Shown: positions 1-63,574, numbered from the stretch's first letter. The stretch: 64,000 bases of DNA from Bacteroidota bacterium (GCA_037128705.1 JBAXVX010000007.1:27617-91616), one strand, 5' to 3'. Translations and numbers: made by a program. The notes: generated from the sequence alone by a model not told the origin.

Positions 1-19
1 GTGACGCGTGACACGTGAC
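1..19 (+). repeat. Heptamer tandem array (GTGACRC) x ~3, truncated by the window edge. An A-rich tract and solo ATCGT / GTAACAGGG units follow, up to ~49.
   Basis: Read directly: GTGACGC GTGACAC GTGACA, then AAAATAA ATCGTTC ATCAGTAACAGGGTAG. Same unit as the arrays at 3838-3880, 41116-41142 and 59606-59645. Confidence 0.7.
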
Positions 20-67
20 AAAAATAAATCGTTCATCAGTAACAGGGTAGTTTTTTCATAGATTTTT

Positions 68-1849
68 ATGCCGTCGGAAAGGAAAATATACTGGGCGCTG
101 ATCATCCTGCTGATTGTTTCGGCGGTGGTTCGTGGTTTTATTGCCGGCTTTATTGAATTGGGCAACGATGAGGTTTATTACTGGACCTATGCGAAATTTC
201 CCGCGCTCAGCCATTTCGACCATCCCCCCATGGTTGGCTTCGTGATCCAGTTCTTTACCCTGAACCTGTTCCTCGACAGTGAATTCTTCATACGGCTGGC
301 CTCCGTGGTACTGGGAACGCTGAGTACGGGAATGATGTTCCTGATCGGCCGGCAGATTAAAAGCCCGCTCACCGGGTTGTACGCCGCCCTTTTATTTACA
401 GCCTCCTTTTATGGATTCATCCTGAGCGGGATCTTTATTCTCCCCGATACCCCCCAGGTGTTTTTCTGGCTGGTCACGCTTTATTGCCTGATAAAATCAT
501 TGCCTGACCAGGATACAGCGCCGGAGAGCAGGAATTATCTCTTCTTCGCAGGGGTCACCGCCGGCCTGGCCCTTTTATCGAAATATCATTCGGTTTTCCT
601 GATTGCCGGGACCTTTATGTACCTTCTTTTATATAACCGGAGATGGTTCATGGCCAAGGAGACCTACGCCTTTTTCCTGATCATCATCATGCTGTTTCTT
701 CCTGTCATTTTCTGGAACATCGATAATGATTTTATCAGTTTTACCTTTCATGAAAAGAGGATCGGGATTTCCGAATCGGGGTTCCAGCCACTCTACTTTC
801 TCACCGAAGTCACGGGCCAGTTTTTTTATAATAACCCGGTGAATGTGGTAATCATCATTGGCTCGCTGATCGCGCTGATCCGAAGGAAACAGTTCATTGA
901 GGTCTCCTACAAGCGCATCCTGCTGTGGACCAGTGTCCCGCTCATCCTGGTGTTCCTCTCTTTTTCACTTTTCCGCAGCACCCTGCCACACTGGACCGGA
1001 CCGGGTTACCTGGGTCTCATCCTGATCGCAGCGGCCTGGCTGTCAGAACCAAAGATGAATGAATCAAAAATGCGCCTTGTTCCTTTACCGGTAGTCATAT
1101 CCCTGGCGTTCCTGATAACGGTAGCCGTAACCGGGGTCGGACAGATCCGTTTTGGCTGGATCCCGCTCCAGCGAATGAAAATCGATGATGTTTCTCTCGA
1201 CATGTATGGATGGAGGCAACTCGGTACGAAGTTCCAGGCAATGGTAAAATGGGATGAGGAGCACTTTCTTATCGACAAGGGATCGCCGATCATTACCTTC
1301 AGGTGGTTCCCCGCGGCCAATTTTGATTATTACCTGGCTCACAATGACCGTAATCCGGTATATGCCCTCGGGGAGATAGAGCGCATCCATAAGTACCATT
1401 GGATAGATCAGCTGCGCGGAAATCTCAAGAAGGGAAGCGACGCCTATTTTATCGCCCTGAGCGATGACTATGAAGATCCGGTGGCGTTATACGGCAACCT
1501 GTTCGATATGGTCCTTCCATCCGATACCCTGTTCATCACGCGGGGCCGCGACACAGTCCGCAAAGCATTTATTTTCAGGATGGTCGACCTGAAACAGGAC
1601 ATGGTCTTCGGCCGCGATAAATATGCAACCCCCAAAAAACAGGATACATCCGATACCCTTTCCTTTTTTCTTAACCAGATCAGGTCGGACCGCCAGTTTC
1701 TCGATGTCCTTGAAAGGAGATCGGTCAAACTGAAAATGCCCCTCGATGACCTGATCAGGGAAGAGGCTGCCAAGCTGTATGAAGAGTCAAAAGACAAGCT
1801 GGTTTTACCGGATACCCTTAAGGAAAAAGGTGACAAGGTGACAAGGTGA
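68..1849 (+). CDS. Polytopic membrane glycosyltransferase, ArnT/PMT-like (GT-C fold, GT39/GT83-like), with a soluble C-terminal domain
   Basis: 593-aa ORF with ATG start. The N-terminal ~2/3 has many hydrophobic helices and the family-typical N-terminal segment (ELGNDEVYYWTYAKFP..HFDHPPMVGF). The last codons (GDKVTR) and the TGA stop lie inside the GGTGACAR array. Confidence 0.75.
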   Translation: MPSERKIYWALIILLIVSAVVRGFIAGFIELGNDEVYYWTYAKFPALSHFDHPPMVGFVIQFFTLNLFLDSEFFIRLASVVLGTLSTGMMFLIGRQIKSPLTGLYAALLFTASFYGFILSGIFILPDTPQVFFWLVTLYCLIKSLPDQDTAPESRNYLFFAGVTAGLALLSKYHSVFLIAGTFMYLLLYNRRWFMAKETYAFFLIIIMLFLPVIFWNIDNDFISFTFHEKRIGISESGFQPLYFLTEVTGQFFYNNPVNVVIIIGSLIALIRRKQFIEVSYKRILLWTSVPLILVFLSFSLFRSTLPHWTGPGYLGLILIAAAWLSEPKMNESKMRLVPLPVVISLAFLITVAVTGVGQIRFGWIPLQRMKIDDVSLDMYGWRQLGTKFQAMVKWDEEHFLIDKGSPIITFRWFPAANFDYYLAHNDRNPVYALGEIERIHKYHWIDQLRGNLKKGSDAYFIALSDDYEDPVALYGNLFDMVLPSDTLFITRGRDTVRKAFIFRMVDLKQDMVFGRDKYATPKKQDTSDTLSFFLNQIRSDRQFLDVLERRSVKLKMPLDDLIREEAAKLYEESKDKLVLPDTLKEKGDKVTR

Positions 1850-1995
1850 CAGGGTGACAAGGTAACAGGGTGACAAAGTAATGGAGTAATGGAGTAATGG
1901 AGTAATGAAATCGAATATCGTAAATCGTAGATCGTAAATCGTATATCGTAAATTAATCAATCATTCGTCATTCGTCATTCGCCATTCGTCATTCA
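1829..1995. repeat. Composite tandem-repeat block of four arrays: (GGTRACAR)x6 at 1829-1876, (AGTAATGG)x4 at 1877-1908, (ATCGTAN)x~5-6 at 1909-1958, (TCATTCG)x~5 at 1959-1995
   Basis: Read directly and unit boundaries counted base by base. The block spans the whole gap between two convergent stop codons (TGA 1847-1849 on +, TGA 1993-1995 on -). Confidence 0.95.
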
Positions 1996-3390
1996 TTTGG
2001 GTCCTGTCATCTTTTTAGGATCAACGATGCGGGTGAATTCTTCATCGGTCAGCAAACCAAGTTCCAGGGTGGCTTCACGCAGGGTTTTATGCTCCTTGTG
2101 TGCTTTCTTGGCTATTTTGGCAGAATTGTCATAGCCGATGTGGGGATTGAGTGCCGTAACCAGCATCAGGGAATTTTCGAGATTTTTGTTGATGGCCGCC
2201 ATGTTCGGTTCGATGCCGATGGCGCAGTTGTCGTTGAATGAAACGCAGGCATCGCCGAGCAGCCTGGCCGACATCAGGAGGTTGGAGATGAGCAGGGGCT
2301 TGAAAACATTGAGCTGGAAATGGCCGCTGATACCGCCGATGTTGATGGCCACATCGTTGCCGAGTACCTGGGCGCATACCATGGTCATTGCTTCGGGTTG
2401 GGTGGGATTCACCTTGCCCGGCATGATGCTGGAGCCGGGTTCATTTTCGGGAAGCATGAGTTCGCCGATGCCGCAACGGGGACCGGAGGCCAGCAGGCGG
2501 ATGTTGGAGGCAATGTGCATCAGGCTTACCGCCAGCGTTTTCAGGGCGCCGGAGGTTTCAACCATCGCATCGTGAGCCGACAGCGATTCAAACTTATTGT
2601 CAGCGGTGATGAAGGGCAGCCCGGTGAGTTCGGCTATTTTTTTAGCCACCAGCACATCATAGCCTTTGGGTGCATTCAGCCCGGTGCCTACAGCTGTGCC
2701 GCCCAGCGCCAGTTCCGACAAATGGGGGAGGGTGTTTTTGAGTGCTTTCAGGCCGTGATCAAGCTGGGAGACATATCCTGAAAATTCCTGCCCCAGGGTG
2801 AGCGGGGTGGCATCCATGAGGTGGGTACGACCTGTTTTCACGATCTCCTTAAACTCTTCGGATTTTTTTGCCAGGGTGCCCTTCAGCAGATCCACACCCG
2901 GTATGGTATTGCCGGTAACCATCTTGTATGCGGCAATGCTCATGGCTGCGGGGAAGGTGTCGTTCGAAGACTGCGATTTGTTTACATCATCGTTGGGGTG
3001 GATCACCGTTTTGCCTTCGCCGCCCAGTTCACCGCCGTTCAGGACGTGGGCCCGGTTGGCGATCACCTCGTTGAGGTTCATGTTGGTTTGCGTTCCCGAA
3101 CCGGTTTGCCAGATCACCAGCGGGAACTGGTCATCCAGCTTGCCATCCAGGATCTCATCACAAACTTTCACAATCAGGGTCATCTTCTCTGAAGGCAACA
3201 CGCCAAGGTCGGCATTCACCATGGCTGCCGCCTTTTTTAGGATGGCCATTCCGCGGATCACCTCTTTGGGCATGGATCCTGGCTCACCAATTTTGAAGTT
3301 GGTTAGTGAACGCTGGGTTTGGGCTCCCCAGTACTTATCCATAGCAACCTCAATGGGCCCCATGGTGTCTTTTTCGATGCGTGTTTTCAT
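1993..3390 (-). CDS. fumC: Fumarate hydratase, class II
   Basis: 465 aa with ATG start. Carries the class II fumarase/aspartase signature [13 protein letters not shown] and matches the family over its full length. Confidence 0.95.
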
Positions 3391-3442
3391 ATGTATATGG
3401 TTTTTAATATGATATCGGGATGAAGGAGGTCATTTTCAGATA

Positions 3443-3787
3443 TTATTTCAGTAGAGATTCAATGTTTTCAACCGGGTCGCCTACCACCGCCCTGTACCTG
3501 CCCTCAACAATCGGGCGTTGAAGGAGCCTGGGATTCTGAAGGATGATCTTCACCCATTCATGATCCTCGAAATTCTTCCCCTTCAGGTTTTGCTTAAAAT
3601 ATTCCTCCTGCGTGCGTACCATCTCCGCCGGCTTCCTGTTCAGTTTTATCAGCAGGATCTCCATCTCCTTTTCCGTCAGCGGATTCCTGATGTATTCAAC
3701 CACTTCGAACGCATTTCCGGAATCCTTCAGGAATTGCAGCCCGGCCCTGGATTTTTTGCACTGGGGATGGTGGTAGATCTTTAACAT
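3443..3787 (-). CDS. ArsC/Spx-family protein (YffB-like, CxxS type)
   Basis: 114 aa. The N-terminus MLKIYHHPQCKKSRAGLQFL matches the ArsC/Spx/YffB fold family. The ATG directly abuts the repeat array. Confidence 0.8.
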   Translation of the reverse strand: MLKIYHHPQCKKSRAGLQFLKDSGNAFEVVEYIRNPLTEKEMEILLIKLNRKPAEMVRTQEEYFKQNLKGKNFEDHEWVKIILQNPRLLQRPIVEGRYRAVVGDPVENIESLLK

Positions 3788-3880
3788 ATTTACGATATAC
3801 GATTTACGATATACGATTTACGATATACGATTTTTTTCGTCACGTGTCACGCGTCACGTGTCACGCGTCACGCGTCACGC
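3788..3880 (-). repeat. Composite array read on the minus strand: (GTGACRC)x6 at 3838-3880, A7 at 3831-3837, (TCGTAWA)x6 at 3789-3830
   Basis: Read directly. It fills the 97-nt spacer between the prfB stop (3883-3885) and the ArsC-family start (3787). Confidence 0.95.
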
Positions 3881-3882
3881 TT

Positions 3883-4972
3883 TTATGCATTACCATATTC
3901 CATCAGGTAGGATTTGATAAACGCGGAGAGGTCGCCATCGAGCACAGCCTGGGTATCCGACGTTTCCTGTCCCGTGCGCAGATCCTTGACCATTTTATAG
4001 GGATGCAGCACATAACTGCGGATCTGGCTGCCCCACTCGATCTTTTTCTTCCCGCTCTCGATCACTGCGATCTTCTCACGCTGCTTTCGGAGTTCGATTT
4101 CATACAACTGCGATTTCAGCAGTTTCAGCGCTTTTTCGCGGTTTTGTCCCTGTGAGCGGGTCTCCTGGCATTCGATGATGATCCCCGAAGGTTCGTGTTT
4201 CAAGCGCACCGCGGTCTCCACCTTGTTTACATTTTGTCCGCCCGGACCGCTGCTGCGAAAGGTGTCCCAGCTGATCTCGGCCGGGTTGATGTCGATCACA
4301 ATGTCGTCGTTGATGATGGGATAGACATAGACTGACGCGAAGGAGGTATGCCGTTTGTGGTTGGAATCGAATGGGGAGAGCCGCACCAGCCGGTGCACGC
4401 CATTCTCGCCCTTGAGGTAGCCATAGGCATAGTCGCCGTCAAACTCCAGGGTCACCGATTTGATCCCCGCCACATCCCCCTCCTGGAAATCCACCTCGGC
4501 GATTTTGAAGCGGCTCCGCTCACCGTACCGGATATACATGCGCATGAGCATCTGAGCCCAATCCTGGCTTTCGGTGCCTCCCGCCCCGGAATTGATCTGG
4601 ACGATGGCGCCGAGCCGGTCTTCAACACCGCTCAGCATGTTGCGGAATTCCAACTCTTCTATAAGCGCCAGTGTTTCGTTGTAGTGATTTTCAAGCTCCT
4701 CTTCAGTTCCTTCACCCTGGATGTGGAATTCCCACATCACCATCAGGTCTTCCTGCGTTGAAAGCGCTTTTAAAAAGGCATCCGTCCAGAGTTTTTTATC
4801 ACGGATGGCACGCTGGGCTGTTTCCGCGGCTTTCGGATTATTCCAGAAATCGGGAGCCTGTGAAAGTTGTTCTTCTTCTGCTATCTGGGAAAGTTTCTTG
4901 TCGATGTCAAAGGTACCTCCTCAAGACGTCGAGCCTGGTCTTCAGGTCTCTCAGTTGGTCTTGTGCTATCAT
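3883..4972 (-). CDS. prfB: Peptide chain release factor 2, expressed through a programmed +1 frameshift
   Basis: Frame-1 leader ATG 4972 reads [21 protein letters not shown] then TGA (4907-4909). After a +1 shift it continues [25 protein letters not shown]... into the 3883..4743 ORF. SPF (RLSPFDS) and GGQ ([10 protein letters not shown]) motifs are present. Confidence 0.93.
4906..4921 (-). promoter_or_regulatory. RF2 autoregulatory +1 frameshift site: AGGAGG (SD-like), 3 nt, then CTT TGA C
   Basis: The minus strand reads TTG AGG AGG TAC CTT TGA C, which is the canonical RF2 recoding cassette. Confidence 0.9.
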
Positions 4973-4973
4973 G

Positions 4974-5468
4974 TCAGATTTTAAGTTCTTTTATTATTTC
5001 GGCAGCCAGGTCAAATTCAAAACCCTTGCCAATTACAAAAGTGATAATTTTTTCGCGGATGTTCAAGTTTTTTCCCGGTTTTATTTCTGACTTTTTTTTC
5101 AGAACCAGTTCGCGCACGGTTTTCCGGTAATCTTCCGGGCTGATCTCCAGCAGGGCCGACCGGATGATGATGTCAGGAATCTTGCGTCCCTTCAGCTCGT
5201 AACCGATCTTTAACCGGCCCCATTTGTTGATCCGGAATTTACCCCTGACGAAGGTTCGGGCAAAACGTTCATCATCAATAAAACCTTCATCTTTCAGCGA
5301 TTTCATCAGTGTGCTGATCCTGCCCCCGGGAACCTTCCATTCAGCCAGCTTCTTCTCTGCATCCCACGCACACCGCTCCTGGTAAGCGCAATAGCGGCTG
5401 ATCCTTTCATAGATGCCTGCAGGATCGGGAGCGTGCTTCATCGCGGTATTGTCCTTATCTTTTTTCAT
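4974..5468 (-). CDS. recX: RecX-family regulatory protein
   Basis: 164 aa. Has the RecX-like N-terminus (ISRYCAYQERCAWDAEKKL) and a helical-repeat body. The stop lies 1 nt from the prfB start. Confidence 0.8.
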   Translation of the reverse strand: MKKDKDNTAMKHAPDPAGIYERISRYCAYQERCAWDAEKKLAEWKVPGGRISTLMKSLKDEGFIDDERFARTFVRGKFRINKWGRLKIGYELKGRKIPDIIIRSALLEISPEDYRKTVRELVLKKKSEIKPGKNLNIREKIITFVIGKGFEFDLAAEIIKELKI

Positions 5469-11974: not shown

Positions 11975-13108
11975 ATGAAAAAATATTTGTTCATCCTGTT
12001 AGTAGGGGCAATCCTCGCTTCATGTACAGGAAATAAGGATCAGTTTACCATCAAGGGAAAGGTCAACGGCGTTGATACAGGAATGATCTACCTGCAAAAA
12101 TTCGATGTTGACCAATGGGTCAAAGTCGATTCATCAAAACTTGAAAAAGGAGCATTTTCATTCAAAGGATCCGCTGCTCTTCCGGAGATGTGGCACATCG
12201 TCATGGATGAAAAGCAAATCATACTTCCCGTGTTTGTTGAAAATGCCGGAATCAAGGTAGAGATCTATGTTGACAGCCTTGATAAATCGTTGATCACAGG
12301 ATCTCCCTCCCATGATATTTACCAGAAGTATCTCACCCTGAATGAGTCCGTGTATAAAAAGATGGATGAGAACACCATGGAGTGGAAGAAAGCCAGAGAT
12401 GCCAATGATTCGGCAACCATGAAACGCACCGATTCGGTTTCGAATGAGCTGGATAAGGAGATGAAAAAGCAGCTCCAGGATTTTGCCAGGGCCAACAACA
12501 AGACTGTTGTTTCTCCCTACCTGGTTATACGCAATAGCTGGCAATTTGAGCTCCCCGACCTGGAAGAACTACTTGCCGCCATGGATACCAGTCTGAATGG
12601 TTCCCAATATGTGCTGGCTCTGAAGAAACGCATTGAAATCCTGAAGCGTGTTGAAATTGGGCAGATGGCTCCTGATTTTACCTTGAATGATACCACCGGG
12701 GCCCCTGTTGCGCTGTCATCCCTGAAAGGGAGGGTGCTGCTGGTTGATTTCTGGGCATCGTGGTGCAGTCCCTGCCGGGCTGAGAATCCCAACGTGGTGA
12801 AGGCTTACCAGGCTTATCACAAGAAGGGATTTGATGTGCTGGGCTGTTCGTTCGACCAGAACCGGGAAAAATGGCTGAAAGCTTTAAGGAATGATAAACT
12901 TACCTGGACCCATGTTTCAGACCTGAAGGGATGGGGCAATGCTGCAGGCAAACTTTATGGCATCAATTCCATCCCGGCAAATGTCCTGCTCGACAAGGAT
13001 CAGAAGATCATCGGCCGTAACCTTCGCGGTGCGGATCTGATGAAGAAGCTGGAAGAGATTTTCGGACCGGCGGTTCCTGAGAAAAAGGGAAAAAAGGCAA
13101 CCAGGTAA
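11975..13108 (+). CDS. TlpA-family thiol:disulfide oxidoreductase lipoprotein (DUF4369 N-domain + thioredoxin fold)
   Basis: 377 aa. Has a lipobox (ILASC) and the redox motif WASWCSPC. The stop TAA lies in the first GGTAACAG unit. Confidence 0.88.
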   Translation: MKKYLFILLVGAILASCTGNKDQFTIKGKVNGVDTGMIYLQKFDVDQWVKVDSSKLEKGAFSFKGSAALPEMWHIVMDEKQIILPVFVENAGIKVEIYVDSLDKSLITGSPSHDIYQKYLTLNESVYKKMDENTMEWKKARDANDSATMKRTDSVSNELDKEMKKQLQDFARANNKTVVSPYLVIRNSWQFELPDLEELLAAMDTSLNGSQYVLALKKRIEILKRVEIGQMAPDFTLNDTTGAPVALSSLKGRVLLVDFWASWCSPCRAENPNVVKAYQAYHKKGFDVLGCSFDQNREKWLKALRNDKLTWTHVSDLKGWGNAAGKLYGINSIPANVLLDKDQKIIGRNLRGADLMKKLEEIFGPAVPEKKGKKATR

Positions 13109-13156
13109 CAGGGTAACAGGGTAACAGGGTAACAGGGTAACAGGGTAACAGGGTGA
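13104..13156 (+). repeat. Octamer tandem array (GGTAACAG)x6 + GGTGA
   Basis: Read directly, with units counted 13104-13151. It contains the upstream stop (13106-13108) and runs into the downstream GTG/ATG start (13153/13156). Confidence 0.95.
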
Positions 13157-29371: not shown

Positions 29372-29464
29372 TTCCCTGCCGGGAGATGGCTTCCGTGCAA
29401 CCTGGTTTTGACTTAACAGGGATGCATGGTCCGATGACGAAAAAATATCGTAAAATAAAGTTCA

Positions 29465-41107: not shown

Positions 41108-41142
41108 CGAATCGCGTGACACGTGACGCGTGACGCGTGACC
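41108..41142 (+). repeat. Solo CGAATCG unit + heptamer array (GTGACRC)x4 (41116-41142)
   Basis: Read directly. It begins immediately after the sufB TGA (41105-41107). Confidence 0.9.
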
Positions 41143-52888: not shown

Positions 52889-52935
52889 GTCACGCGTCAC
52901 GCTTTTCCGTCACGCGTCACGCTTCATGTGTCACG
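52889..52935 (-). repeat. Interrupted heptamer array: plus strand reads (GTCACGC)x2 ttttcc (GTCACGC)x2 ttcatgt GTCACG, then T7
   Basis: Read directly. This is the reverse orientation of the GTGACRC family. The 16-nt super-unit GTCACGCGTCACGCTT occurs twice, 20 nt apart. Confidence 0.9.
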
Positions 52936-52943
52936 TTTTTTTA

Positions 52944-52951
52944 TACCTTTG
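52944..52951 (+). promoter_or_regulatory. -7 promoter box TACCTTTG
   Basis: Exact TAnnTTTG match, ending 21 nt upstream of the dxs ATG at 52973. Confidence 0.5.
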
Positions 52952-59600: not shown

Positions 59601-59616
<16 letters not shown>

Positions 59617-59685
59617 CAAAAAAATCGTGACACGTGACGCGTGACAAAAAATATTGTAAATCGTAAATCATACATCGTAAATTTT
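59601..59685 (+). repeat. Composite array: [ATC (GTGACRC)1-2 GTGAC A6-7] x2 (59603-59651) followed by (ATYGTAA)-type units x4 (59653-59681)
   Basis: Read directly. It contains the permease stop (59614-59616) and ends 12 nt before the tauE-family ATG. Confidence 0.92.
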
Positions 59686-59696
59686 AAAAGAGTCTC

Positions 59697-63514: not shown

Positions 63515-63524
63515 GCAAGATTGT

Positions 63525-63573
63525 TAATTCGTCATTCGCAATTCATCATTTGTCATTCGTCATTCGTCATTCC
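63525..63573 (-). repeat. Heptamer tandem array (TCATTCG)x7 on plus, which reads (CGAATGA)x7 on the gene-sense minus strand
   Basis: Read directly, with units counted. It begins 1 nt after the LOG-family stop (63575-63577), and 10 nt separate it from the kinase ATG (63514). Confidence 0.92.
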
Positions 63574-63574
63574 T

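What the first reader, a model, noticed from the sequence alone, without database searches (positions are those of the whole stretch)
3788..3880. Recurrent higher-order architecture: GTGAC array, A-tract, ATCGTA array, used as the entire prfB-to-arsC-family spacer
Read on the gene-sense minus strand, the 97-nt spacer is TAA-aagc-(GTGACRC)x6-A7-(TCGTAWA)x6-T-ATG. The downstream ATG therefore has no conventional upstream sequence, only the AT-rich heptamer array. The same ordered module (GTGAC units, A6-7, then ATCGTA units) recurs at 59603-59681 and 1-35, and in degenerate single-copy form at 29433-29456. I see no TAnnTTTG box here, so the ArsC-family gene is probably co-transcribed with prfB, with the array inside the mRNA. 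An A/U-rich, stop-saturated, unstructured spacer could suit termination and reinitiation in a phylum that largely lacks Shine-Dalgarno use. That last point is inference.
Basis: partly seen in the sequence, partly recalled or inferred. Interest (0 to 1): 0.6.

Follow-up and report, generated by a model that had tools for sequence, protein, structure and literature searches.

The report
Heptamer repeat arrays filling an operon spacer
The gap between two co-oriented housekeeping genes of an uncultured lake Bacteroidota bacterium consists entirely of two short tandem-repeat arrays that were inserted into a once-compact gene junction; they belong to a known but functionally unexplained class of bacterial heptamer repeats, here arranged in an unusually regular, recurring order.

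Summary
The spacer between the prfB TAA and the ArsC-family ATG is 95 nt, not 97. It reads TAA-AAGC-(GTGACRC)5-GTGACG-A7-(TCGTAWA)6-T-ATG.

It is one of at least 9 intergenic blocks of 7-8-nt tandem arrays in the window: 11 arrays, against 1 in 50 shuffles. The junction TGACR-A4+-ATYGT occurs 5 times (0.08 expected), always on the gene-sense strand.

The block is a lineage-specific insertion into a compact junction. Relatives have -8 to +10 nt there. A 91%-identical sister species carries the same module with fewer units. This copy is identical in 10 assemblies, but the sister module at 59603 and the fumC 3' array vary in unit number between strains.

I found no promoter box, terminator, Rfam family or unusual structure. 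The GC-rich half can form a weak hairpin. The AU-rich half is unstructured, AUG-free and has A at -3.

Verdict: these are slippage-prone heptamer arrays of the LSSR/STRR/TAACTGA class, probably co-transcribed and tolerated or mildly modulatory. They are not needed for reinitiation.

Two further points: the sub-array order recurs in unrelated contigs, which suggests a dispersed mosaic element; and PF05635 four-helix-bundle genes are flanked by inverted 7-8-mer arrays in 13 of 14 cases.

The parts
3883..4972 (-). prfB (release factor 2). ATG at 4972-4970, programmed +1 frameshift site AGGAGG-TAC-CTT-TGA-C at 4926-4906, stop TAA at 3885-3883.
   Evidence: Pfam PCRF and RF-1; sequence read.
3879..3882 (-). 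4-nt linker AAGC between the prfB stop codon and the first repeat unit.
3838..3878 (-). GTGACRC array: five full heptamers plus GTGACG. TGA falls in all three sense frames. It can form an imperfect hairpin (-22 kcal/mol).
3831..3837 (-). A7 tract joining the two arrays. It is part of the recurrent junction TGACR-A4+-ATYGT.
3789..3830 (-). TCGTAWA array: six heptamers, equal to a perfect 14-mer x3. It is AU-rich, predicted unstructured, contains no AUG, and has TAA in all three frames.
3443..3788 (-). T plus the ArsC/Spx-family gene (ATG at 3787-3785, 114 aa). A at -3.
   Evidence: Pfam ArsC; NCBIfam arsC, below cut-off; start supported by alignment from residue 1 in relatives.
1..50 (+). Sister module upstream of the PMT gene: (A9)-GTGACGC-GTGACAC-GTGAC-A5-T-AAATCGT-TCATCAG-TAACAGG. 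The A9 and the Nramp stop codon lie just outside the window.
1827..1994 (+). Four consecutive arrays that fill the convergent PMT/fumC spacer: (AAGGTGAC)6, (AGTAATGG)4, (AAATCGT)6.6, (TCATTCG)5. The stop codons of both genes lie inside arrays.
13104..13154 (+). (GGTAACAG)6.4 fills the whole 47-nt spacer. The upstream TAA is part of the first unit.
29433..29456 (+). Single-copy form of the junction: ATGACG-A6-T-ATCGTAA.
41113..41141 (+). (GTGACRC)4, 5 nt after the sufB stop codon, inside the sufB-sufC spacer.
52889..52935 (+). Interrupted GTCACGC units (antisense orientation) with T-runs, between the sufT-like stop codon and a TACCTTTG box upstream of dxs. The position is conserved in the related species L201.
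59603..59682 (+). Sister module: AAATC-(GTGACRC)2-A7-TC-(GTGACRC)3-A6-T-ATTGTAA-ATCGTAA... The permease stop TGA (59614-59616) lies inside it. Unit and block numbers vary between strains.
63527..63572 (+). (ATTCGTC)6.6, which reads (ATGACGA)n on the gene-sense minus strand. It fills the 60-nt spacer between two minus-strand genes.

Best explanation
What it is. The spacer is a lineage-specific insertion or expansion of two short tandem-repeat arrays. It belongs to a genome-wide population of 7-8-nt arrays, all with a GTRA/TGAC-type core on the gene-sense strand, that colonise intergenic DNA in this uncultured lake Bacteroidota lineage.

How it changes. The arrays grow and shrink by replication slippage. 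They are kept out of coding sequence and are preferentially oriented so that the purine-rich, stop-containing strand is the mRNA strand.

This copy. It sits inside a recX-prfB-arsC(-fumC) transcription unit, at a junction that is overlapping or at most about 10 nt long in relatives. It is therefore most probably transcribed as part of the mRNA. Its effect is that of a tolerated spacer. It abolishes the ancestral stop-start coupling. The ArsC-family gene is then initiated de novo on about 50 nt of unstructured, AUG-free, A-rich RNA with A at -3. A weak hairpin sits just behind the prfB stop codon.

Shown versus inferred. Shown: the anatomy, the recurrence, the absence from relatives, the polymorphism at sister loci, and the lack of promoter, terminator or structure signals. 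Inferred: co-transcription, slippage as the mechanism, and the consequences for translation. The fixed order of sub-arrays across loci suggests that a small mosaic element disperses and then expands locally. That part is inference.
For: Anatomy and statistics.

Genome-wide intergenic arrays that fill whole spacers, including a convergent one and the sufB-sufC spacer.

Insertion into a compact junction:
- L244 (80% nt identity): 8-nt overlap.
- L010: 1 nt. L039: 3 nt. L050: 4 nt. L011: 10 nt.
- L237 (91% nt identity): 52 nt carrying the same module with 3-4 and 2 units.
- The fumC/PMT spacer is 13 nt in L244 and 143 nt here.

Slippage:
- The fumC 3' array has 5 units here and 8 in L002.
- The module at 59603 occurs as [2]-A7-[3], [2]-A7-[4], [4]-A7-[4] and [4]-A7-[4]-A7-[4] among strains with identical flanking protein. 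(TCGTAAA) occurs as 3 or 4 units in a diverged strain.
- The 14-mer copies are perfect, which implies recent expansion.

Operon context: conserved synteny, the recX-prfB 1-nt junction, and a canonical terminator upstream of recX. No terminator or -7 box lies in the spacer.

Initiation context: the AU half folds at -3.2 kcal/mol, has A at -3 and no AUG. This matches the determinants in PMC6847099.

Orientation:
- All six unit types in the window carry stop triplets only on the sense strand.
- In convergent spacers 13 arrays follow the rule and 2 do not.
- In low-GC loci the split is 78 against 35.

Independent heptamer arrays occupy the same prfB junction in L063 and L077.

The same class is described in PMC4679880: heptamer assemblages in Bacteroidetes spacers that are absent from close relatives.
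Against: - This particular copy is identical in 10 assemblies that differ by about 0.1-0.3% elsewhere. It is therefore less mutable than its sister module and may be constrained.
- The same units and the same sub-array order recur at non-orthologous loci and in unrelated contigs. GTCAC units persist at an orthologous spacer in L201 while the flanks have diverged. Local slippage alone does not explain either point. Both hint at sequence-specific function or at a dispersal mechanism.
- There are no expression data, so co-transcription and the translational effect are untested.
- The sense-strand stop statistic may be partly inflated by my simple ORF caller. The convergent-spacer subset avoids this bias, but it is small and not fully independent.
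Confidence: 0.6

Rival explanations
1. The array is an adapted intercistronic leader that promotes termination at prfB and reinitiation at the ArsC-family ATG in an organism without Shine-Dalgarno use.
For: - The spacer has no promoter box and no terminator.
- The AU half is unstructured, stop-saturated, AUG-free and has A at -3.
- Arrays also abut start codons at 13156, 63514 and 59697.
Against: - Relatives achieve coupling with -8 to +10 nt and no array. The insertion therefore lengthens the path to 95 nt and adds a -22 kcal/mol hairpin.
- The same arrays occur in a convergent spacer and between a stop codon and a downstream TAnnTTTG box.
- The other array-fed starts lack A at -3.
- Unit number varies freely at the sister module.
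Confidence: 0.1
2. The arrays are binding platforms for a sequence-specific nucleic-acid-binding factor acting on the transcript: an OB-fold CSP/S1-type protein, as proposed for TAACTGA repeats, or another lineage-specific protein. They would regulate stability, processing or translation of flanking genes, in the manner of REP/BIME elements.
For: - Strand bias relative to genes.
- A conserved GTRA/TGAC core across unit types and across relatives: GTGACGA in L010, GTGACTG in L011, GTGACRC in L201 and L237.
- GTCAC units retained at an orthologous spacer while the flanks diverged.
- A fixed sub-array order across loci.
- This copy is invariant in 10 assemblies.
- The literature proposes this role for heptamers.
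Against: - No factor has been identified.
- Unit numbers and whole blocks vary between strains.
- The arrays are absent from the same junction in relatives.
- The flanking genes are functionally unrelated.
- There is no excess RNA structure.
Confidence: 0.2
3. The arrays are remnants or derivatives of a mobile or RNA-processed cassette whose arms are tandem 7-8-mers. Such cassettes carry a PF05635/TIGR02436 four-helix-bundle (Avd-like) gene.
For: - 13 of 14 independent PF05635 genes are flanked by inverted arrays of 7-8-mers. Many have GTRAY-type units, and they abut the neighbouring genes' stop and start codons.
- One cassette, with GTGACTG arms, sits directly upstream of recX-prfB in the relative L011.
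- Left and right flanks of the insert both resemble the L244 junction ATGCTTAAAATC, which may be a target duplication.
Against: - The two arrays here are direct repeats, not complementary, and are not predicted to pair.
- No PF05635 homologue occurs in the 74 kb available for this species.
- The duplication reading assumes that an L244-like ancestor existed.
Confidence: 0.08
4. It is a phase-variable contingency locus: unit-number changes switch a promoter or reading frame on and off.
For: Unit-number polymorphism at sister arrays. Some arrays supply the stop codon of the upstream ORF.
Against: - This copy is invariant in 10 assemblies.
- No promoter motif spans it.
- Stops in all three frames make the ORF ends insensitive to unit number.
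- The flanking genes are housekeeping genes.
Confidence: 0.03

Closest known systems
TAACTGA heptamer direct repeats of Beggiatoaceae, cyanobacteria and some Bacteroidetes (MacGregor 2015, PMC4679880)
   Same: - Tandem heptamers in intergenic DNA, mostly 'forward' and immediately upstream of start codons that lack SD sequences.
- Stop triplets on the forward strand.
- In Gramella, Aequorivita and Elizabethkingia the spacers hold assemblages of several different heptamer arrays, and close relatives have shorter spacers without repeats.
- Contigs break at the arrays.
- Function unknown; a translational role or binding by S1 or CSP has been proposed.
   Different: - The units differ (GTGACRC, TCGTAWA and others).
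- 8-mers are mixed with 7-mers.
- Here the sub-arrays keep a fixed order with an A-tract joint that recurs across loci and contigs.
- Many arrays start at or over the upstream stop codon rather than at the start codon.
- Strain-level unit polymorphism and a dated insertion series are documented here.
Long simple sequence repeats with 5-11-nt units (Mrazek et al. 2007, as summarised in PMC4679880; also PMC4692102)
   Same: - Heptanucleotide units predominate.
- Sporadic, lineage-specific distribution.
- Units that are not multiples of 3 are excluded from coding sequence.
- Slippage is the proposed origin.
   Different: That work is a statistical survey. It does not describe ordered multi-array mosaics or operon-internal insertions.
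Cyanobacterial STRR heptamers (Mazel et al. 1990; from my own knowledge, not tested here)
   Same: Lineage-specific heptamers repeated in tandem at many intergenic loci, some within operons. Function unresolved. The (ATGACCA)5 array of L237 is, as I recall it, STRR2 (TTGGTCA) read on the other strand.
   Different: A different phylum and mostly different units. The STRR sequences were recalled from memory, not checked against a source.
REP/BIME mosaic elements of enterobacteria (own knowledge)
   Same: Short extragenic elements at gene 3' ends and between cistrons, built from sub-motifs in a characteristic order, with orientation relative to transcription.
   Different: REPs are 20-40-nt imperfect palindromes mobilised by RAYT transposases. 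Here the building blocks are direct 7-8-nt tandem repeats, most show no excess structure, and no RAYT was seen.
23S rRNA intervening-sequence protein (PF05635/TIGR02436) cassettes
   Same: In the loci sampled, these genes are bracketed by arrays of 7-8-mers of the same general type (GTRAY cores) that abut the neighbouring stop and start codons.
   Different: Those arms are inverted copies that would form a long duplex and enclose a gene. The prfB-arsC block has two different direct arrays and no gene.

Membership tests
Intergenic heptanucleotide / long simple sequence repeat arrays (LSSR, STRR-like) | Head-to-tail copies (3 or more) of a 5-11-nt unit | tested here: met
   TRF finds 6.1 copies of a 7-mer and 5.9 copies of a 7-mer (also a 14-mer x3.3, 100% match).
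Intergenic heptanucleotide / long simple sequence repeat arrays (LSSR, STRR-like) | Far more arrays than chance, and confined to non-coding DNA | tested here: met
   11 arrays against 1 in 50 shuffles. All lie in the 5.8% non-coding fraction or overlap ORF ends.
Intergenic heptanucleotide / long simple sequence repeat arrays (LSSR, STRR-like) | The same unit used at several loci of one genome; lineage-specific | tested here: met
   GTGACRC occurs at 5-6 loci, ATCGTAW at 4-5 and TCATTCG at 2. Other Bacteroidota loci use other units.
Intergenic heptanucleotide / long simple sequence repeat arrays (LSSR, STRR-like) | Unit-number change between strains or species (slippage) | tested here: met
   Met at 59603 and at the fumC 3' array between strains. 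Met at the prfB-arsC spacer between the window and the 91%-identical species L237. Not seen among 10 near-identical assemblies.
TAACTGA repeat family (MacGregor 2015) | Unit TAACTGA | tested here: not met
   The units are GTGACRC and TCGTAWA.
TAACTGA repeat family (MacGregor 2015) | Forward orientation within a few nt upstream of a start codon that lacks an SD sequence | tested here: met
   The TCGTAWA array ends 1 nt before the ATG and is on the sense strand.
REP/BIME | Imperfect palindromic unit of 20-40 nt forming a stable stem-loop | tested here: not met
   The repeats are direct. The fold z-score is +0.28 for the spacer, and the other arrays have z of -0.6 to +2.2.
REP/BIME | Associated RAYT (IS200/IS605-like) transposase in the genome | not tested
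   Only 74 kb of this species was available, and its proteins were not all scanned.
Intrinsic terminator | GC-rich hairpin followed by a T-run | tested here: not met
   No terminator-like sites in 3300-5300 or 1500-2300. The hairpin is followed by A7.
Bacteroidota promoter | TAnnTTTG -7 box | tested here: not met
   No match between 2589 and 4908. The match at 4908-4915 is the prfB frameshift site.
Known structured RNA (Rfam 15) | Match to a covariance model | tested here: not met
   No hits at the gathering threshold over the whole window, and none at E<=1 for 3700-3960.
Contingency-locus SSR (phase variation) | Repeat within an ORF or promoter, so that unit number switches expression; length heterogeneity within populations | tested here: not met
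   No promoter motif spans it, it lies outside the ORFs, and it is invariant in 10 assemblies.
PF05635 cassette arms | Two inverted arrays of the same unit that bracket a four-helix-bundle gene | tested here: not met
   The two arrays differ, are direct and enclose no gene. No PF05635 homologue in the window or its 10-kb extension.

The most novel reading that the evidence does not exclude
The arrays may not be independent slippage products. They may be copies of a previously undescribed dispersed mosaic element of a Bacteroidota lineage. The sense-strand order would be GGTRACAR -> AGTAATGG -> GTGACRC -> A-run -> TCGTAWA -> TCATTCG. The element would insert behind stop codons, possibly with a target duplication of about 12 nt. 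It would be mechanistically linked to the inverted tandem-array arms that bracket PF05635/TIGR02436 Avd-like four-helix-bundle genes. On this reading, heptamer arrays in Bacteroidota (and perhaps STRR-type repeats generally) would be the cis-elements of a cassette system with a trans-acting nucleic-acid-binding protein.
Probability: 0.15. Interest if true: 0.75.

Novelty: new variant of a known kind. Interest (0 to 1): 0.45.

Why it matters
Heptamer tandem repeats have been known in cyanobacteria, Beggiatoaceae and some Bacteroidetes for decades, with no accepted function or origin.

This locus gives an unusually clean natural experiment. A housekeeping gene pair is overlapping or adjacent in relatives. 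It carries a short version of the module in a 91%-identical species and an expanded version here, while a sister module in the same genome is polymorphic among strains. Both the cost or benefit of such arrays for operon expression in an SD-blind ribosome system and the mode of array dispersal therefore become directly testable.

The ordered mosaic, and the association of such arrays with PF05635 genes, are leads to a mechanism, if they hold up. If they do not, the finding is an ordinary though tidy example of bacterial simple-sequence repeats.

Tried and rejected
- Promoter inside the array. No TAnnTTTG is present, and the only sigma-70-like hit is on the wrong strand. The nearby TACCTTTG at 4908-4915 turned out to be the prfB frameshift site, not a promoter.
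- Intrinsic terminator. None found.
- Structured RNA. There is no Rfam hit. Fold energies are no better than shuffles. GTGACGC ranks only 8th of 60 permutations for self-pairing.
- Assembly artefact. Rejected, because the spacer is identical in 10 assemblies.
- Copy-number variation at this spacer among near-identical strains. None found. Variation appeared only at sister arrays and in the sister species.
- Orthologous metagenome copies. I therefore cannot say whether the contigs sharing the mosaic come from the same species.
- PF05635 homologue in the window. None.
- Literature link between PF05635 and tandem arrays. None found in the held library.
- Rho-utilisation idea (C>G on the antisense strand). 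The skew is too small for GTGACRC and TCGTAWA to argue from.
- Method correction. My first junction print-out for L011 and L039 was wrong because of a coordinate bug. It was corrected.

Full report
OBSERVATION

On the minus strand the sequence reads prfB ...GGT AAT GCA TAA, AAGC, GTGACGC GTGACGC GTGACAC GTGACGC GTGACAC GTGACG, AAAAAAA, TCGTATA TCGTAAA TCGTATA TCGTAAA TCGTATA TCGTAAA, T, ATG TTA AAG. The spacer is 95 nt (3788-3882). TRF reports both arrays, and the AU array is a perfect 14-mer x3.3. The flanking ORFs are RF2 (PCRF and RF-1 domains) and an ArsC/Spx-family protein.

THE ARRAYS ARE A PROPERTY OF THE GENOME

This is not a one-off. The window holds 11 non-overlapping arrays of 7-8-nt units, against 1 in 50 dinucleotide shuffles. 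All lie in the 5.8% of the window that is non-coding, or overlap ORF 3' ends.

Several spacers consist of nothing else:
- 1850-1992, between convergent PMT and fumC, holds four arrays in a row.
- 13109-13155 is (GGTAACAG)6.
- 63515-63574 is an array throughout.
- Most of 59617-59696 is array.

One array lies between sufB and sufC.

All hits are intergenic and gene-sense. The fifth copy, at 1-50, is complete in a longer contig: A9-(GTGACRC)2-GTGAC-A5-T-AAATCGT....

ORGANISM AND OPERON CONTEXT

The window matches contigs of lake-water metagenomes and MAGs. Its nearest relatives among species representatives are unnamed Bacteroidota/Bacteroidales MAGs, with at most 87% RF2 identity.

- prfB carries the classical +1 frameshift site AGGAGG-TAC-CTT-TGA-C. 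This accounts for the only TAnnTTTG match near the locus.
- The recX stop codon and the prfB ATG are 1 nt apart.
- A canonical hairpin-plus-T terminator lies upstream of recX.
- No terminator-like site and no -7 box lie between prfB and the ArsC-family gene.

COMPARATIVE EVIDENCE

The prfB-arsC-fumC order is conserved in 20 of 80 Bacteroidota loci. The junction forms a series:

| Locus | Relatedness to window | prfB-arsC junction |
|---|---|---|
| L244 | 80% nt identity | 8-nt overlap (ATGCTTAA) |
| L010 | 87% RF2 identity | 1 nt |
| L039 | more distant | 3 nt |
| L050 | more distant | 4 nt |
| L011 | 81% RF2 identity | 10 nt |
| L237 | 91% nt identity | 52 nt: AAATC-(GTGACRY)3-4-A5-(TCGTAAA)2 |
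| window | - | 95 nt |
| L241 | 83% nt identity | 173 nt: different arrays plus two small hairpins |

The fumC/PMT convergent spacer is 13 nt in L244. It is an all-array mosaic in L237 and in the window. The arrays are therefore insertions or expansions into junctions that were compact. The module predates the split between the window species and L237, and its unit numbers have changed since.

Independent heptamer arrays occupy the same prfB junction in two Flavobacteriales MAGs: (GATGAAA)10 in L063 and (ATTGAAG)4 in L077.

The left and right flanks of the insert (ATGCATAAAA.. and ATGTTAAAGATC) both resemble the L244 junction ATGCTTAAAATC. This is compatible with a duplication of about 12 nt at insertion. 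That reading assumes an L244-like ancestor.

POPULATION VARIATION

The prfB-arsC spacer is identical in 10 assemblies whose flanks differ by about 0.1-0.3%. Other arrays do vary:
- The array after fumC has 5 units here and 8 in L002.
- The sister module at 59603 occurs as [2]-A7-[3], [2]-A7-[4], [4]-A7-[4] and [4]-A7-[4]-A7-[4] GTGACRC units among strains with an identical downstream protein.
- A 94%-identical strain has (TCGTAAA)3 or (TCGTAAA)4 at that module.

This is the signature of replication slippage at both unit level and block level.

TESTS OF FUNCTION

- There is no Rfam family.
- The spacer folds no better than shuffles (z = +0.28). The GTGAC half can form an imperfect hairpin (-22 kcal/mol), and the AU half is essentially unpaired (-3.2).
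- Other arrays are as unstructured as shuffles, or more so.
- The AU array gives the ArsC-family start codon A at -3, no upstream AUG and low structure. These match the determinants reported for Bacteroidia, whose ribosomes ignore SD sequences (PMC6847099; PMC7797042 and PMC10798248 listed).
- Other array-fed start codons in the window lack A at -3.
- Two GTGAC arrays lie upstream of a TAnnTTTG box rather than in a leader (41113 and 52889).

ORIENTATION

On the gene-sense strand every unit type in the window has a GTRA or TGAC core and hence a stop triplet: GTGACRC, AAGGTGAC, GGTAACAG, AGTAATGG, GTAAATC, ATGACGA. The complements have none. With periods of 7 or 8 nt, all three frames are closed.

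Several upstream ORFs actually end inside an array: PMT, the permease, the gene ending at 13108, fumC, and prfB of L063.

- In convergent spacers, where start-codon calling cannot bias the result, 13 arrays follow the rule and 2 do not.
- Over all low-GC loci the split is 78 against 35. That figure may be inflated by my ORF caller.
- For GTGACRC arrays with assignable context I counted, by eye, about 16 sense and 6 antisense.
- The antisense arrays tend to carry T-runs and precede a -7 box, as at 52889. That one is positionally conserved in the related species L201 although its flanks have diverged.

WIDER DISTRIBUTION AND THE MOSAIC

(GTGACRC)3 or longer occurs in more than 120 metagenome contigs of very different GC content. 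In contigs of 41-50% GC, the arrays are bounded by A-runs and combine with the window's other units.

Annotating unit classes gives one recurring sense-strand order: GGTRACAR -> AGTAATGG -> GTGACRC -> A-run -> TCGTAWA -> TCATTCG.
- It holds in three non-orthologous spacers of the window.
- It also holds in L092 (two blocks), L098, L142 (two blocks, one with the first class recurring at its end), L144, L178 (two blocks), L199 and L158.
- One or two blocks are exceptions.

Slippage explains growth of arrays. It does not explain this dispersal of an ordered mosaic.

SIDE FINDING

A PF05635/TIGR02436 four-helix-bundle (Avd-like) gene is bracketed by inverted arrays of 7-8-mers in 13 of 14 independent cases. 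One such cassette has GTGACTG arms and lies directly upstream of recX-prfB in L011. The units differ between organisms, and the arms abut the neighbouring genes' stop and start codons. I found no report of this in the held literature. No homologue occurs in the 74 kb available for the window's species. The prfB-arsC arrays are direct and non-complementary, so a link to this locus is only a lead.

WHAT IS KNOWN

The closest description is MacGregor 2015 (PMC4679880). It reports tandem heptamers upstream of SD-less start codons, assemblages of different heptamers in Bacteroidetes spacers, absence from close relatives with shorter spacers, and no known function. Mrazek's LSSR survey found heptanucleotide units to be the commonest and proposed slippage. 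PMC4692102 notes that SSRs of 6-9 nt are rarely studied. Cyanobacterial STRRs and enterobacterial BIMEs are analogies from my own knowledge.

The locus meets the defining features of the heptamer/LSSR class. It fails those of REP/BIME, terminators, promoters, Rfam RNAs, contingency loci and PF05635 arms.

VERDICT

The proposed purpose, reinitiation, is not supported, because the arrays replaced a tightly coupled junction and occur in contexts where no initiation takes place.

The best-supported reading is a slippage-prone, sense-oriented heptamer mosaic that invaded a compact operon junction and is tolerated or mildly modulatory (confidence about 0.6). The main alternative is a sequence-specific binding platform (about 0.2).

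It is a new variant of a known kind. Its interest lies in the clean evolutionary series, the ordered mosaic, and the possible link to PF05635 cassettes.

Noticed in passing
L011 7776-8331; L201 5000-5690; L113 8440-8930; L191, L164, L208, L100, L040; L224, L231, L232, L234/L236 (L228 is the exception): Genes for PF05635/TIGR02436 four-helix-bundle (23S rRNA IVS protein, Avd-like) proteins are bracketed by inverted arrays of 7-8-nt tandem units in 13 of 14 independent cases. The units differ between organisms, and the arms abut the neighbouring stop and start codons. L234 and L236 differ in unit number. I found no report of this in the held literature.
   Followed up: partly
window 4926-4906 (-): The prfB programmed +1 frameshift site AGGAGG-TAC-CTT-TGA-C, with its SD-like element, is present in this Bacteroidota genome. 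It produces a spurious TAnnTTTG 'promoter box' match at 4908-4915. The recX stop codon and the prfB ATG are 1 nt apart (TGA-C-ATG).
   Followed up: yes
window 59603-59682 and L214-L221: This module varies among strains at both unit level and block level ([2]-A7-[3] up to [4]-A7-[4]-A7-[4]). The amino-acid permease ORF ends on a TGA inside the array, and the annotated permease length differs between strain groups (584 and 602 aa).
   Followed up: yes
window 1850-1992: The convergent PMT/fumC spacer consists only of four arrays and has no terminator-like hairpin. The genome uses canonical hairpin-plus-T terminators elsewhere (for example about 5590-5545, minus strand). How the two convergent transcripts end is unclear.
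   Followed up: partly
window 52889-52951 and L201 2960-3087: Antisense GTCACGC units with T-runs lie just upstream of a conserved TACCTTTG box before dxs. The units and the box are conserved between two species (about 80-90% protein identity), while the rest of the spacer is not alignable.
   Followed up: partly
L109, L129, L134, L152, L159, L161, L164, L189, L202, L205 (high-GC metagenome contigs): A (GTGACRC)n array is followed 20-40 nt later by an inverted (YTGTCAC)n array, often right after a stop codon. These look like long hairpins built from tandem heptamers, that is, 'empty' versions of the PF05635 cassette arms.
   Followed up: no
L241 2328-2500; L215 about 540-560: A small palindromic element (GGCTCCGTAGGAGCC / GCTCCGTAGGAGC) occurs twice in the L241 prfB-arsC spacer. 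A similar insert (GGCTCCACCGAGCTCC) interrupts the L215 module. This may be another small dispersed element.
   Followed up: no
L237 4295-4334: The array after fumC in the sister species is (ATGACCA)5. On the other strand this reads TTGGTCA, which as I recall it is the cyanobacterial STRR2 heptamer. I did not check this against a source.
   Followed up: no
L002, L003, L007, L009, L222, L223 (contig ends): Many metagenome contigs of this species start or stop inside the arrays. The repeats therefore break short-read assemblies and will be under-represented in MAGs.
   Followed up: no
L137 (Ga0181533_1005811, 11.6 kb): This peat-metagenome contig has ten (GTGACRC)3+ matches. They are arranged as higher-order repeats [A-run-TC-(GTGACGC)n], mixed with long (AGTGACAG/AGTAACAG)n and (GTGAAGA)n arrays. 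It is an extreme case of the same mosaic.
   Followed up: no
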